NCBI GenBank assembly: GCA_020137815.1
Contig: CM035351.1
Location: 8,246,001-8,310,000 of the forward strand
Length of the DNA stretch: 64,000 bases
Reading direction: 5' to 3'
Origin: Hormiphora californensis
Taxonomy: Eukaryota; Animalia; Ctenophora
Under the pieces are notes generated by a model, which was given only the letters and a program-made list of their open reading frames with translations, was not told the DNA's origin and did no database searches. Within the stretch, counting starts at the first letter, position 1, and the number at the start of each line of letters is the position of its first letter. Position numbers and translations under genes: made by a program. This document shows, in pieces, positions 40,305-58,300 of this stretch.

Positions 40305-43300
40305 AGTCTCCCCTTTTGTAGGTATTGTGATAGTTCCGGTCATTCCTGCCTCAACTCAGTAACTCCTGCAGATTGCACCAGGCAAGTAAATTGTTGTTGA
40401 TATTTCTAGTGACGACCGTGATCATTTAGATAACGTGGACCATTGCTGTTATTCGAATTTACAGCTATACTAGTCTAGGACGGTATTCAGTAATATGCTA
40501 TAGCTGTAATCTCAGCGCTGGTAAGCGTGGACCAGTTGGGGACCAGTTAATTAGTTGATACCTTTCTCGTGCATGCTGTCATGGTACTACACAATTGGTA
40601 GATTCACCCTAAGTTCAGACACCACTAGGGTTAAGTGGTTTAACCGTAGAGCTATAGTACGGTGCTAGAGAAATTAACTCATTTTCTCGAGATTCGGAAG
40701 TCTAGCTGAGTATGTCACTCTACCGAAAGAAGATTGAAATAAAGTCGAGACTCGAAAGAAGAAATATGTAGTGGATTGATTCTATACCCAGATTGAGTAA
40801 TCCACGAAATCAGAGAGAGGGTATAATAACCTGTCATGCATGACATGCCGTCACTTTATGCAATGTTAGCATAGAGATCCAAAAAATAGAAAAAGAGTAA
40901 CTTTCTCTCAATTCCTTGAATTTTGAAAAGAAGGCGTTCATTCGTATGCTTGTCAAAGTCCTTTGAATCCTGGTATCGTCATCGTTTTAGTTTCGCTAGA
41001 CACCCCCTCCTTGCCTCTCACCAGTATTCCCTCTCCCCCTCCTTCCCACCCACCATTCCCTCCCACCATTCTCTCCCACCATTCCCTCCCACCATCCCCT
41101 CCCACCATTCTCTCCCACCATTCCCTCCCACCATTCCCTCCCACCATTCCCTCCCACCATTCCCTCCCACCATTCCCTACCACCATTCCCTCCCACCATT
41201 CTCTCCCACCATTCCCTCCCACCATTCTCTCCCACCATTCCCTCCCACCATTCCCTACCATTATTCCCTACCACTATTCCCTCCCACCATTCCCACCCAC
41301 CATTCCCTCCCACCATTCCCTCCCACCATTGCCTCCCAGCATTCCCTCCCACCATTCCCTCCCACCATCCCCTCCCACCATTCTCTCCCACCATTCCCTC
41401 CCACCATTCCCTCCCACCATTCCCTCCCACCATTCCCTCCCACCATTCCCTACCACCATTCCCTCCCACCATTCTCTCCCACCATTCTCTCCCACCATTC
41501 CCTACCACCATTCCCACCCACCATTCCCTCTCACCATTCCCTACCACCATTCCCTCTCACCATTCCCTCCCAGTATTCCCTACCACCATTCCCTCCCACC
41601 ATTCCCTCCCACCATTCCCTCCCACCATTCCCTCTCACCATTCCCTCCCACCATTCTCTCCCACCATTCCTACCACCATTCCCACCCACCATTCCCTCTC
41701 ACCATTCCCTACCACCATTCCCTCTCACCATTTCCTCCCAGTATTCCCTACCACCATTCCCTCCCAGTATTCCCTACCACCATTCCCTCCCACCATTCCC
41801 TCCCACCATTCCCTCCCACCATTCCCTCTCACCATTTCCTCCCACCTCCCAATAAATAAAATAAAATAAATAAAATAAAATAATAAAATAAAATAAAATA
41901 TTTCTCTTTTTCAGTTGCTGTCCCGGTTGGACCGGAGATAACTGTGATGTTGGTAAGTTGTAATTAGCTGTAATTAGTTTCTTAATTTGAAACTAATTAA
42001 TTGATTAGCAATTAGGAGTCATAACATGATCTAGCTGGGTCCAGTTTCCACGTATATTTCATTGCCATGTTGTCATACTCTAGGAGCTCATATAAGGGAC
42101 TCCAAGATTTAATTCGTTGCACGAGACCCCAGCTAGTTATTCAAGACAAGCTATACATGTTGTATAATACCCGCGAGGAGGTTGGCATCAGGTGAAATTT
42201 AAACGGCGCAGCATGGCAGGGAGCTGTTTTAACTTAATTATTATCTGCCCAGTTGGCACCACTCCAGCTGAAAATTCCTTAAAGCAAGACTCTCTCTCTC
42301 TCACCATATATGAGTTCTGTAATAACAAATCACGTCCGCCGAGATAAGCATCTCTCGACAACATAGGGCAGCAGCAGCATGCTGTGGCGTGGACGTGGTG
42401 GTGGTGTCATATGTAAAAATATTTGGCGGCTTCCCTTTAAGTGCCCATGGAGTCACGTGTGTTGGGCTGCCCTCCTCTGAGCTGGGGGCGGGGTTCATTA
42501 AATTGTAGCCTATTGTTAGCCCTGCATTACACGTGGGTGAGGGAGGGGTGGCAGCAGGGGTTGATCAGGGGTCTAAGTGGGGGGGGGGCTGGCAGACTTT
42601 CGATCCGCTACCTCCGCGAGAGAGAGGCTCAGAGGCAGTCCACCAAAATTAACACCCACATATTCCAGATATTGACGAATGTAAGAATGGTACTATAAGC
42701 TGTCCAAGTAACAGCAGCTGTTTCAATGATCCAGGGGGCTACACGTGTGTATGTGATGATGGATACCAGTCAGATAATACCACAACAGGGGTGATGGATC
42801 ACGGCTTGAATATAACCTGTACAGGTACAACGAAATGGTGTTGAAGTTGACTTGAAGTTGATGATTTGTTCAGAAGCTAAAACATTCTTACAAAACCGTG
42901 GTAACTGTGTTAAGGCCTAAAAGCCCTTCCCCCTCTCTCTATACAGATATTGATGAGTGTTCAGAGGGCACAGACGACTGTTCTGATACCTGTGTTAACA
43001 CACCCTCTGGCTCCTACACCTGTACATGTCCTGACGGGTTTACTTTATCAACAGATAACACAACCTGTGAGGATATAGATGAGTGTACTATGGTTGATTC
43101 CTGTCCAGCCACTGCAACCTGTAACAACACTATAGGAGGGTGAGTGATACAGAGTTAACAGAGTTACTAAACCAAAACTTAAACTAGCGGATTGATCATT
43201 TGTTAGGTTCTAACCCTCTTTTACATTTGTAATAACTCTGAGACCTGAGTCATTCGATTATGAAAGAATTGCTTCTTCGGCTTGATCGTTACACCATATT

Positions 43301-55300: not shown

Positions 55301-58300
55301 CCCCTCCCCCTGGAAGTTCTATACTGCTCCCCTGGAAGTCTTCAACAATAGAAAAAAGTCATTCCTTCTTCCTCTTAGTCCACTATATTATATTATAATC
55401 CCTCATAATCCCCTCTCAGTCTAGAGATACAGATCTTGGTTATGGGAGATTCATGGTTTCTGAATACGATGGTGACAACGTTACCTGCACTCTAAACGAG
55501 ACTCTCCTTCAGGTAAATTTCACATGCCCATATTTGGTGTGTTTTTCACGTGACATGCCCATATTTGGCGTGTTTGTCACGTGACATGCCCATATTTGGC
55601 GTGTTTGTCACGTGACATGCCCATATTTGGCGTGTTTGTCACGTGACATGCCCATATTTGGCGTGTTTGTCACGTGACATGCCCATATATGGTGTGTTTG
55701 TCACGTGACATGCCCATATATGGTGTGTCTATTATCATATTGTCTCCGTCTAGGTCGATGTAACTAGATTTCAATACGAGCGAATCAACAACAACTTGGT
55801 AAGCTATAACAGTTACTGAGCGCTCTCTGAAATAACGTTCGAATAATCTGACTAGTCAAACACGCCCTATTATTTTGCAGAGGATAATGTTGAAATTGAA
55901 GGAGCAGGGAGGAGAGGAACGATACACGGTTAGAGATCTAGCTAACAAACACCACTTCCCATATGCCAAAACTGACGAGTGGTTTGTGCTAGGTCTCAAT
56001 CTGACATGCATGGATGCTATTGGTCTCACCAACTGGAGAGAGACTCGGATGGAACTGAAGATTAATGATCCAATTGTATATGTTTCAAGGTTGGTACACC
56101 TCTCATTACTCATACATCACCATACCTCACTCACTATACCTCACTCACTATAATAACCTCACTAACCCCACTATACTAACCTCACTAACCCCACTATACT
56201 AACCTCACTAACCCCACTATACCTCACCCACTATACTAACCTCACTAACCCCACTATACCTCTCACTACAGTTTGTCGATTAAACCGAAGCAGTTGGAGG
56301 TTGATAAACTGGACAGTCCGATAATGGTGACTGGTAAAGGGTGTTATACAAGTGACACGGTCGTCAACCAGTCACTCTGCACTGAAACCTCTGAGACATT
56401 TACCATCGTAAGGAACACATACAGTCGGACCCCGATTTACCGGGCCCCGATATTCTGGGCACCGTGATTTACCGGGCAGAACCCTTCCCCCGAGCATCCC
56501 GGTAGATTGGGGTCCGACTGTAGCAGCTAAAATGTATTAGCTAGTTGTTTATTGACGTTTCAAGGGTCTTATCTGCTGTCCGTACAATTAAACCCTCTTT
56601 TTTATGACGCAGATGGGTGTTTTTGTAATTTGTGTGACGTTACACTCCCTGACACACAAACACGTGACACATGCCCATATATGGCGTGTTTGTCACGTGA
56701 TATGTCCATATATGGAGTGTTATAATAACCCTTCCACTCTCACAGGAGAGGGTTCTAACGCACAACGAGAGTTTTGTATTGGAGGGTAAGAAATCCCTGC
56801 TCTACAAGCAGCCTCTGTCAGCCGGTGTTTACAATCTGTCACTTCTTATTGCCAATACGGAGAAAGATACTGAACCGTCCCGGAAACTGTTTGTGACTAT
56901 CAACCTGAAAGGTATCAGCTACAGACCCGCAAGGAACCGTGTAAATTATTAAATCTGAAACCTCAAACGGTCGTTGTAGTAAAGTCCCAACCCATTATAT
57001 GGATTAACGTTCTTTATTTCTCAGGCAAATCTAACTGGGCATTAGTTGGATTAGCGGGCGGATCTATCATGATTTTCCTCTTCTTCATCTTCTTTATCCG
57101 TCTAACTCGAGGAAGGTGGACGTGGGGCAAGGAGGAAAAGAAAGGAGAGAGTGTTAGGCTGAATACTATGTACAATCACATGTGGCAGCAGGTAGCTAGC
57201 TATCATATCGAGATGGAAAATCTGAGGATATACTCGGACAAGAAACTGGGCAGTGGTCATTTTGGAGTGGTATGTTTTAAATCGCTTTGAATTAACATGG
57301 TTACTTTTCCATTTGTGTGGAGTCACATTAAAGGAGAATATACCTTGTAGCAGTTACAGTACCTTCATTTACCATTGTTTCTCTGTTTCACAGGTTCATT
57401 ATGGAGAGTGTCGGGGTCTGAAAGGAGTACCTCCAAACAATTGGCTGCCTGTGGCTGTCAAGGAACTAACAAACTTAGACCACATTTCGTATAATGAAGC
57501 CCTTTTAAAGGTACAGAATGTTTCCAATTCAATTGTCGAAATTATTTATATTTTCTTGTTTTCTAATTTCACCGAACAGAAGATAACTATTTATTTTTTC
57601 ATTCTGATTGATGAATCCTTCATCACCTCCCCCCTCCCAGGAGGTACAAGCCCTGACGCACTTCAAACACCGCAACATAACCTCCCTATTGGGCATTGGG
57701 GTGGAGGATGGCACCCAGAAATATATCATCATGGAACTAATGGACGAGGGTTCCCTGAAAACATTCCTTGCAACTGTAAAACGTGGTGATGGACCTGGCC
57801 AACTACACCTCGACCAGTCTCACTTTACATATATTGCTGCTCAGGTGAGTCCACCATGGACCTATTATACGACGCTGTATTTAGTTTTAGTTGAAGCAAT
57901 TGGCTCTCAAATATTGGCTCTCTCTTATATATAGGTATCTCTGGAAAATATCTCTAAATCCGGGGGACGTTCCCCCGTGCAAGGGAGAGTGAGGGAATAA
58001 TTTTACCACATGTTAATACAGCCCTATATTTAACAGGTAGCGGACGCCATGTCGTACATGGAAAGTATAAAGGCGGTACACCGAGATATCGCTGCCAGGA
58101 ACTGTCTAGTAAACAACAAGTTGGTAGTGAAACTAGCTGACCTTGGGGCGGCCACACAGCTCAGTACTGCCTCTGGATCCAGTACAGAATACTACAGGGT
58201 GGGAGGGAAACCTATACCCATCCGGTGGAGCAGCCCAGAGGTAATTATATAATTACTAATGTAATTATAATTACTGATATGACACATTGTTTAGGTGGAT

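What the first reader, a model, noticed from the sequence alone, without database searches (positions are those of the whole stretch)
40305..57100. Unusual RTK ectodomain: ~9 EGF repeats + Sushi-like + 2-3 degenerate cadherin-like repeats
Known: among bilaterian RTKs only RET has cadherin-like domains (with a membrane-proximal Cys-rich region) and TIE has three EGF repeats; none combines a long Ca-binding EGF array with Sushi and cadherin-like modules. Here the order is EMI-like CCPGW, EGF array, Cys-rich/Sushi-like module, cadherin-like repeats, TM. It may be an undescribed adhesion-type RTK class. The cadherin and Sushi calls rest on partial motifs.
Basis: partly seen in the sequence, partly recalled or inferred. 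Interest (0 to 1): 0.75.

Follow-up and report, generated by a model that had tools for sequence, protein, structure and literature searches.

The report
Comb-jelly EGF–cadherin-like receptor tyrosine kinase
This is one intact comb-jelly gene for a membrane receptor tyrosine kinase, with full-length counterparts in two other sequence records, whose outer part joins nine EGF repeats and a Sushi module to a stalk predicted to fold like cadherin domains, a layout that matches no receptor kinase family we found described and that likely senses a partner on neighbouring cells or in the matrix.

Summary
Confirmed and extended. A 27-exon gene (39690-59333, + strand; 1261 aa, no internal stop) encodes: signal peptide, 6-Cys cap, 9 EGF repeats (7 full Ca-binding consensus), Sushi module, three ~110-125 aa stalk domains, one TM helix, tyrosine kinase. 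The window is a Pleurobrachia-type ctenophore. Two full-length relatives are collinear across the 7.8-kb intron: Mnemiopsis KAL5256978 and an unnamed 1221-aa ORF on a 4145-bp contig, likely a spliced transcript. About 7.5 kb of that intron is inverted-repeat elements. Sushi is supported by profile hits. Low-confidence AlphaFold models of the two relatives put stalk domains 1 and 3 closest to cadherin and bacterial Rib domains (Z 8.0 and 9.2); domain 2 did not fold reliably; Pfam sees no cadherin and Ca-linker motifs are mostly degenerate. The three kinases form one long-branched clade (100/99) with catalytic residues intact but DLG for DFG, plus conserved juxtamembrane NxxY and C-tail tyrosine motifs. 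It fails RET and TIE architecture tests; RET, ROR and TIE kinases could not be put in the tree. Verdict: a real, apparently undescribed ctenophore RTK architecture. 'Adhesion-type' is not shown; the stalk is more likely a spacer.

The parts
39690..59333 (+). Whole coding span of a 27-exon receptor tyrosine kinase gene, 1261 aa
   Evidence: collinear with P0002 and P0163
39690..39966 (+). Predicted start: 6-bp coding micro-exon (39690-39695, ATG, GT donor) spliced to exon 39910-39971; hydrophobic signal peptide aa 1-21
   Evidence: start is inferred from phase and hydrophobicity, P0163 also begins with a hydrophobic leader
40322..41952 (+). Two exons (40322-40381, GC donor; 41915-41952) for a ~30-aa 6-Cys cap with CCxGW
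   Evidence: conserved in P0163 (score 91 vs shuffle max 48); the Mnemiopsis model differs at its N-terminus
42669..46181 (+). Seven exons encoding the array of 9 EGF repeats (7 full Ca-binding consensus, 1 partial, 1 atypical)
46182..53959 (+). 7778-bp phase-0 intron, next largest intron 1533 bp
   Evidence: bridged by collinear relatives
46235..47347 (.). ~1.1-kb palindromic element inside the intron (352-bp arms, 92% alike)
47497..53905 (.). ~6.4-kb non-coding element with terminal inverted repeats (about 270 bp, 86%), flanked by a 6-bp direct repeat, with inner inverted repeats 50325-50581 / 53311-53568 (99.6%)
   Evidence: 94 of the window's 95 GGCGCC sites lie in this intron
53960..54426 (+). 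Sushi/CCP-like module with extra Cys pairs, in two exons (53960-54078, 54297-54468)
   Evidence: orthologous exon fragments reach Pfam Sushi 20.9 and 20.3 bits, cut-off 20.7; beta-2-glycoprotein I E 8e-5, E-selectin E 8e-4
54439..55215 (+). Stalk domain 1, predicted cadherin-like beta-sandwich
   Evidence: model of P0163, E-cadherin EC1 Z 8.0, rmsd 3.0, 95 aligned; Rib long Z 7.5
55216..56072 (+). Stalk domain 2, likely a third cadherin-like domain; keeps acidic motifs ExDxD, CxD and IND and one Cys pair in all three proteins
   Evidence: not folded reliably (pLDDT under 50 over most of it)
56073..56907 (+). Stalk domain 3, predicted cadherin/Rib-like beta-sandwich, directly before the membrane
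   Evidence: model of P0002, Rib long Z 9.2 rmsd 2.9, protocadherin-15 Z 7.9; sequence hits to bacterial cadherin-like/He_PIG repeat proteins
57033..57095 (+). Single transmembrane helix
   Evidence: hydropathy
57159..57173 (+). Juxtamembrane hydrophobic-N-x-x-Y motif (NPxY in P0163), predicted PTB docking site
   Evidence: present in 3 of 3
57228..59258 (+). Tyrosine kinase domain: GxGHFG, VAVK, alphaC Glu, HRD(I/L)AARN, DLG in place of DFG, tandem YY, PxRWxSPE
59238..59333 (+). Last exon with conserved C-terminal tyrosine motif and stop; AATAAA at 59353

Best explanation
This is one intact gene for a single-pass receptor tyrosine kinase of comb jellies, which likely works as an active, ligand-clustered receptor: a calcium-binding EGF array, predicted to be held away from the membrane by a Sushi module and three cadherin-like spacer domains, would bind a partner on a neighbouring cell or in the matrix, and clustering would trigger autophosphorylation and adaptor docking. 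Shown by sequence: the gene model, the domain order, conservation in three full-length proteins, intact catalytic residues, conserved tyrosine motifs. Predicted: cadherin-like fold of stalk domains 1 and 3. Inferred from general RTK biology (recalled): Ca-stiffened EGF rod, dimerisation, trans-phosphorylation of the activation-loop YY, PTB adaptors at the juxtamembrane NxxY and an SH2 protein at the C-tail tyrosine. The ligand is unknown; a large, tethered one is inferred from the length of the ectodomain (~895 aa).
For: One ORF over 27 exons. Collinear with Mnemiopsis P0002 (1225 aa) and P0163 (1221 aa on a 4145-bp contig) in every region, including both sides of the long intron. Intron length explained by inverted-repeat elements, leaving about 250 bp against a median intron near 210 bp. 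Identity by region in the three pairwise comparisons: kinase 57-60%, EGF 48-55%, Sushi 37-52%, stalk 25-40%: the stalk drifts most. Gly loop, VAVK Lys, alphaC Glu, HRD Asp and Mg-binding Asp, YY, NxxY and the C-tail motif are present in 3 of 3. Fold searches of two models return cadherin-type domains: 43 of 44 Foldseek rows shown are cadherins or RET cadherin-like domains; Z 8.0 and 9.2 best hits; Atlas feature hits are cadherin/He_PIG/Big_9 clusters at 0.85-0.87 (lead only).
Against: No RNA of this species could be laid, so splicing in the window itself, the start micro-exon and the GC donor are inferred. P0163's origin from RNA is inferred from ORF and contig length; its organism is not given. 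Folds are of relatives, from a 9-row alignment, mean pLDDT 48 and 51; domain 2 and the Sushi did not fold; Z near or under 8 can mean only a common beta-sandwich, and Foldseek E-values are only 1e-5 to 1e-3 with query TM at most 0.2. The three stalk domains do not match each other by profile (probability under 1%). Higher EGF identity partly reflects fixed Cys. DLG occurs in 3 of 238 kinase rows listed, all of this family, and the basic residue three places after it is missing, so activity may be low. Nothing here tests ligand, dimerisation or activity.
Confidence: 0.55

Rival explanations
1. Adhesion-type RTK: the cadherin-like domains themselves bind homophilically in a Ca-dependent way, so cell contact through the stalk activates the kinase.
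For: Cadherins dominate the fold hits. Domain 2 keeps ExDxD, CxD and IND acidic motifs in 3 of 3 proteins, and the window protein keeps an NxNExP linker after domain 1.
Against: No Pfam cadherin hit. The linker after domain 1 is lost in both relatives, domain 3 has no DxD, and no LDRE-type motif is kept (read against recalled cadherin consensus). The stalk lies under ~450 aa of EGF and Sushi and is the least conserved ectodomain part. Bacterial Rib domains score as well as cadherins.
Confidence: 0.12
2. Pseudokinase or weak-kinase co-receptor, like vertebrate ROR: the ectodomain binds ligand and the intracellular part is a scaffold phosphorylated by another kinase at NxxY and the C-tail tyrosine.
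For: DLG instead of DFG and no basic residue after it in all three proteins; vertebrate RORs carry DLG (recalled) and are catalytically deficient (PMC4100928, passages); long stem branch of 1.64.
Against: All catalytic residues and the full Gly loop are kept, whereas PMC4100928 ties ROR's defect to non-consensus P-loop residues; kinase is the best conserved region and the activation-loop exon is 79% identical to Mnemiopsis.
Confidence: 0.2
3. A strongly diverged member of a known family (RET, TIE, or insulin-receptor-like group) whose ectodomain was rebuilt by domain shuffling.
For: RET cadherin-like domains appear among fold hits (Z 5.7; Foldseek rows). Best solved-structure matches of the kinase are insulin/IGF1 receptor, ABL, TRK and Eph; tandem YY and a long D-E insert (21 and 20 residues against 23 in IGF1R and 16 in FAK by the same count).
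Against: No membrane-proximal Cys-rich domain, three rather than four stalk domains, nine EGFs. In a 36-row tree the clade sits outside the insulin-receptor and FAK clades with unresolved deeper position. RET, TIE and ROR kinases were not in that tree.
Confidence: 0.1
4. Two separate genes (an EGF-repeat protein and a Sushi-stalk kinase) joined only by our model.
For: The intron is five times longer than any other; the public Pleurobrachia model P0001 is kinase-only; no RNA of this species was available.
Against: Two independent full-length relatives carry both halves in one ORF and align residue by residue across the junction; the downstream half has no signal peptide and the upstream half no stop; the intron is filled by mobile-type elements; P0001 is visibly faulty (exons 23-25 duplicated).
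Confidence: 0.03

Closest known systems
RET (and insect Ret-like Cad96Ca/Stitcher)
   Same: Single-pass RTK with cadherin-like domains of degenerate sequence in the ectodomain; RET domains appear among fold hits. PMC8662651 (section read) says the Ret family uniquely has cadherin extracellular domains among the families surveyed.
   Different: Here three such domains abut the membrane with no Cys-rich domain, and lie under a Sushi module and nine EGFs; kinase kinship to RET untested.
TIE1/TIE2
   Same: RTK with EGF repeats N-terminal to a three-domain beta-sandwich stalk (TIE layout recalled).
   Different: Nine mostly Ca-binding EGFs instead of three, no Ig domains detected, a Sushi module, stalk predicted cadherin/Rib-like rather than FN3.
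Insulin-receptor-kinase-like group (InsR/IGF1R, TRK, ROR, MuSK, DDR)
   Same: Tandem YY in the activation loop, long D-E insert, juxtamembrane NxxY; InsR/IGF1R are among the best solved matches. DLG is shared with vertebrate ROR (recalled).
   Different: No L, LRR, Ig, Frizzled, kringle or discoidin domain; tree does not place it in the InsR clade.
Eph receptors
   Same: Contact-sensing RTK whose ectodomain has Sushi and EGF-like motifs before a beta-sandwich stalk (PMC6485061, passages).
   Different: No ephrin-binding domain, no FN3 hit, no SAM domain; long Ca-binding EGF array.
Selectins and beta-2-glycoprotein I (Sushi); fibrillin/fibulin-type Ca-binding EGF arrays (recalled)
   Same: EGF followed by Sushi; best sequence matches of the Sushi module.
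   Different: Those proteins have no kinase; module-level likeness only.
Bacterial Rib-long, He_PIG/Big_9 and dystroglycan-type cadherin-like stalk domains
   Same: Best or near-best fold and sequence matches of stalk domains 1 and 3; such domains serve as surface stalks (recalled).
   Different: Identity 9-16%; a shared fold shows neither descent nor gene transfer.

Membership tests
Receptor tyrosine kinase (class) | Signal peptide, one TM helix, intracellular tyrosine kinase domain | tested here: met
   PK_Tyr_Ser-Thr 232 and 236 bits in the relatives; HRDxAARN and PxRWxxPE motifs
Receptor tyrosine kinase (class) | Ecto- and kinase domain on one transcript | tested here: met
   two full-length collinear relatives, one an uninterrupted ORF on a 4145-bp contig; not shown with RNA of this species
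Receptor tyrosine kinase (class) | Ligand-induced autophosphorylation | not testable with these tools
   catalytic residues intact, DLG variant
RET | Cadherin-like domains in the ectodomain (four in RET) | tested here: inconclusive
   three domains, two predicted cadherin-like at Z 8-9
RET | Membrane-proximal Cys-rich domain (recalled) | tested here: not met
   stalk domain 3 runs directly into the TM in 3 of 3 proteins
RET | Kinase groups with RET/FGFR-type kinases | tested here: inconclusive
   no RET row in the best 60; no RET sequence was available for the tree
TIE | Ig-Ig-three EGF-Ig layout (recalled) | tested here: not met
   nine EGFs start right after a 30-aa cap; no room for N-terminal Ig domains
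TIE | Three FN3 domains before the membrane (recalled) | tested here: inconclusive
   no Pfam fn3 hit; fold lists are led by cadherin and Rib domains; contactin Ig/FN3 chains appear at Foldseek ranks 12 and 14
Cadherin superfamily (true EC repeats) | Match to the Pfam Cadherin profile | tested here: not met
   none at E up to 1
Cadherin superfamily (true EC repeats) | Ca-binding linker motifs PE, LDRE, DxNDN, DxD (recalled) | tested here: not met
   only domain 2's acidic motifs and IND are kept in all three
Cadherin superfamily (true EC repeats) | Cadherin-type beta-sandwich fold | tested here: inconclusive
   domains 1 and 3 predicted so at moderate Z in low-confidence models; domain 2 unfolded
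Sushi/CCP module | Sushi consensus (C-x-C..GY.L.G...I.C...W...C) and profile match | tested here: met
   borderline scores, N-terminal half carries extra Cys
ROR/MuSK | Frizzled Cys-rich domain (PMC8662651) and kringle (recalled) | tested here: not met
   no such Pfam hit and no unassigned stretch for it
Insulin-receptor-kinase-like group | Kinase clade membership | tested here: inconclusive
   YY and long D-E insert present; deep position unresolved
EMI domain | Full ~75-aa EMI domain (recalled) | tested here: not met
   only a 30-aa 6-Cys module with CCxGW; no Pfam EMI hit in P0163

The most novel reading that the evidence does not exclude
Comb jellies have their own ancient RTK class, built independently of RET by joining a Ca-binding EGF array, a Sushi module and a cadherin-fold stalk to a DLG-type tyrosine kinase; it is conserved across ctenophore orders, was missed by cadherin and kinome surveys because Pfam does not see the stalk and the public Pleurobrachia model is broken, and serves as a cell-contact or mesoglea-sensing receptor in the lineage that may be sister to all other animals.
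Probability: 0.45. Interest if true: 0.7.

Novelty: new variant of a known kind. Interest (0 to 1): 0.55.

Why it matters
Ctenophore RTKs are barely catalogued: the holozoan kinome study PMC8662651 has no occurrence of 'ctenophore' in its main text, and the 2026 ctenophore cadherin survey PMC13245172 counts five or six cadherins by HMM and mentions no kinase-bearing one in the passages and section read. A conserved receptor that couples cadherin-fold domains to a tyrosine kinase would be a second, probably independent, invention of what RET is thought to hold uniquely, or else a very old relative of it; either answer bears on the signalling kit of the first animals. It also gives a natural test of whether a DLG tyrosine kinase with an intact P-loop is active. 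Against high interest: shuffled RTK ectodomains are common in early-branching holozoans (PMC4342544, passages), and no function is shown.

Tried and rejected
No genome is held for the window, so paralogues and copies of the intron element could not be counted. RNA: no RNA holder listed; the one run offered covered 1 of 30 bins with two 33-base pieces and showed no joints; uninformative. The word-indexed search with the stalk of P0002 found only itself among 3414 candidates. The all-library search with the same stretch gave 41 proteins: by best stretch and the 17 scanned against Pfam they are Sushi-repeat proteins, three bacterial Ig/cadherin-like repeat proteins, one low-complexity match, and nine single-exon fragments of this family; 0 of 41 carried a tyrosine kinase HRD motif. 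Metagenome scan: 2 loci at 26-28% in the kinase only, not followed. First alignment of non-overlapping fragments was wrong and was discarded; the window's own exons could not be aligned into the folding input, so folds are of the relatives. Stalk domains do not match each other by profile. Atlas could not take P0163. Tree: 36 rows; 3 of 36 candidate kinases were dropped as under 200 aa; RET, TIE, ROR, ALK, Eph and other ctenophore kinases were not available. Families absent from fold lists (FN3, Ig sets) are not excluded by that absence. Supplement of PMC13245172 was searched but is cut in storage and gave no hit even for the species name, so it says nothing. PMC2453073, PMC3130542 and PMC4337882 (Monosiga kinome, Amphimedon and Pleurobrachia genomes) are not held; their supplements may list this or a similar architecture. 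O-fucose and RGD motifs were looked at by eye and are not conserved outside the cell. No complex was folded. Earlier-finding look-ups returned nothing.

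
Full report
Gene model. Reading the + strand in three frames gave 26 exons from 39889 to 59333 with compatible phases and no internal stop. No ATG lies in the first of these; an in-frame acceptor at 39910 and a 6-base ATG exon with a GT donor at 39690-39695 complete a hydrophobic leader. The final model has 27 exons and 1261 aa; 25 of 26 introns are GT-AG, one is GC-AG. An AATAAA follows the stop by 20 bases. The start exon and the GC donor are inferred, not seen in RNA.

Organism and relatives. The activation-loop exon found a Pleurobrachia bachei model (P0001, identical in three kinase exons, 67 of 68 in a fourth) and Mnemiopsis leidyi KAL5256978 (P0002, 1225 aa). 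P0001 is kinase-only and repeats three exons, so the public model of this gene is broken. A search with the intracellular part of P0002 added P0163, an unnamed 1221-aa ORF on a 4145-base contig, which leaves no room for introns and is likely a spliced transcript. The three full-length proteins align end to end: EGF array 48-55%, Sushi 37-52%, stalk 25-40%, kinase 57-60%. P0163 also shares the leader and the 6-Cys cap; the Mnemiopsis model begins differently and lacks a leader, likely an annotation fault. Nine single-exon fragments from unnamed assemblies match the Sushi and stalk exons at 40-94% to P0002, four of them versions of one exon, so the family occurs in further species or has paralogues. 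Among the 120 best hits of each kinase search, only P0002 and P0163 carry EGF domains; these lists are ranked by kinase likeness, so EGF-bearing RTKs of other animals are not excluded.

One gene or two. Both relatives run continuously over the junction between the last EGF and the Sushi module. The 7778-bp intron holds a ~1.1-kb palindrome (46235-47347) and a ~6.4-kb element with terminal inverted repeats and a 6-base flanking direct repeat (47497-53905); without them about 250 bases remain, close to the gene's median intron. tblastn of P0002 found no exon inside it. RNA of this species could not be tested. I put the single-gene reading at about 95%.

Ectodomain. The cap has six Cys and a CCxGW motif but is too short for an EMI domain (EMI size recalled). 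The array has nine EGFs; seven meet the full Ca-binding consensus in each of the three proteins (Pfam). The next module is Sushi-like: the P0002 stretch retrieves selectin-type Sushi repeat proteins through its residues ~25-75, orthologous fragments score at the Pfam cut-off, and the alignment profile hits beta-2-glycoprotein I, E-selectin and CD46. The stalk (about 355 aa) has no Pfam match. Two AlphaFold models of the relatives (mean pLDDT 48 and 51) each resolved part of it. Domain 1 (mostly 60-84 in the second) matches E-cadherin EC1 (Z 8.0, rmsd 3.0, 95 aligned), Rib-long and T-cadherin (7.5) and RET domains 1-2 (5.7). Foldseek lists are led by cadherins: 43 of 44 rows shown, the first 11, with weak E-values. 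Independent sequence support exists for domain 3 only (bacterial Ig/cadherin-like repeats). Domain 2 did not fold reliably; it keeps ExDxD, CxD and IND and a Cys pair in all three. The tool warns that Z under 8 can be a common arrangement, so 'cadherin-like beta-sandwich' is likely (about 70% for domains 1 and 3), not proven. Against the recalled cadherin consensus, most Ca-linker ligands are lost.

Intracellular part. All catalytic motifs are intact in 3 of 3, with tandem YY, a long D-E insert, a juxtamembrane hydrophobic-NxxY (NPxY in P0163) and a conserved C-terminal tyrosine motif. DFG reads DLG, found in 3 of 238 kinase rows listed, all of this family. A maximum-likelihood tree of 36 kinase domains gives the three a clade of 100/99 on a stem of 1.64, outside the insulin-receptor and FAK clades, with unresolved deeper position and a long-branch warning. 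Best solved matches are IGF1R/InsR, ABL, TRK and Eph at similar scores; the top EGFR row is a two-kinase construct. RET, TIE and ROR could not be included.

How it likely works. Shown: architecture and conserved motifs. Predicted: stalk fold. Inferred from recalled RTK biology: Ca-bound EGFs form an extended arm, the Sushi and stalk lift it from the membrane and may align dimers, a tethered ligand on a neighbouring cell or in the mesoglea clusters receptors, the YY is phosphorylated in trans, and PTB and SH2 proteins dock at NxxY and the tail. I give this 0.55; a weak or dead kinase scaffold 0.2; homophilic adhesion through the stalk 0.12; a rebuilt member of a known family 0.1; two genes 0.03.

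Known systems and literature. It is an RTK but fails RET (no membrane-proximal Cys-rich domain), TIE (EGF number, no N-terminal Ig), ROR (no Frizzled domain) and true-cadherin tests. Ten full-text searches listed no paper describing this receptor or layout. Seen: PMC13245172 passages, section 6 and a cut supplement; PMC8662651 passages and section 8; passages of PMC6485061, PMC4342544, 10.1101/2025.09.30.679519, PMC10084454 and PMC4100928; listing only for PMC11908783 and PMC3720245. The Monosiga kinome, Amphimedon and Pleurobrachia genome papers are not held, and I recall that sponges, sea urchin and amphioxus have many RTKs with shuffled ectodomains, some with EGF repeats; an EGF array on an RTK is therefore probably not new, while its union with Sushi and a cadherin-like stalk was not found.

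Verdict. Real feature, correctly seen. New variant of a known kind; interest 0.55.

Noticed in passing
window 47497-53905: Non-coding ~6.4-kb element with ~270-bp terminal inverted repeats, a 6-base flanking direct repeat and nested inverted repeats; holds nearly all GGCGCC sites of the window (94 of 95 are in this intron). Looks like a non-autonomous foldback DNA transposon; family not determined.
   Followed up: partly
window 46235-47347: ~1.1-kb palindromic element (352-bp arms, 92%) with related copies at 48607-49151; possible 3-base flanking repeat.
   Followed up: partly
window 7478-19097 (- strand): Cluster of Cys-containing exons that recur in two similar sets (7478-9145 and 18165-19097), with a Pfam Sushi exon at 11507-11857 ending in a hydrophobic tail and a signal-peptide-like exon at 13446-13670: likely tandem surface or GPI-anchored Sushi proteins.
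   Followed up: partly
window 33086-33865 (- strand): Single-ORF secreted-type protein with two PLAT/LH2 domains (Pfam E 1e-16).
   Followed up: partly
window 35369-35968 (+ strand): C-terminal half of a rhodopsin-family GPCR; a no-Pfam 210-aa ORF at 37362-37991 may be a further exon or gene just upstream of the RTK.
   Followed up: partly
window 23459-27184 (- strand): Long ORFs without Pfam match (26000-27184, 24896-25522, 23459-24094); the last has a signal-anchor-like start and a His/Gly/Asp-rich repeat.
   Followed up: no
P0001 (public Pleurobrachia model): The public gene model of this locus is kinase-only with three exons duplicated, so domain surveys on that proteome would miss the ectodomain.
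   Followed up: yes
window 41043-41846: 13-bp tandem array, about 62 copies, C-rich on the + strand, inside the GC-AG intron.
   Followed up: no
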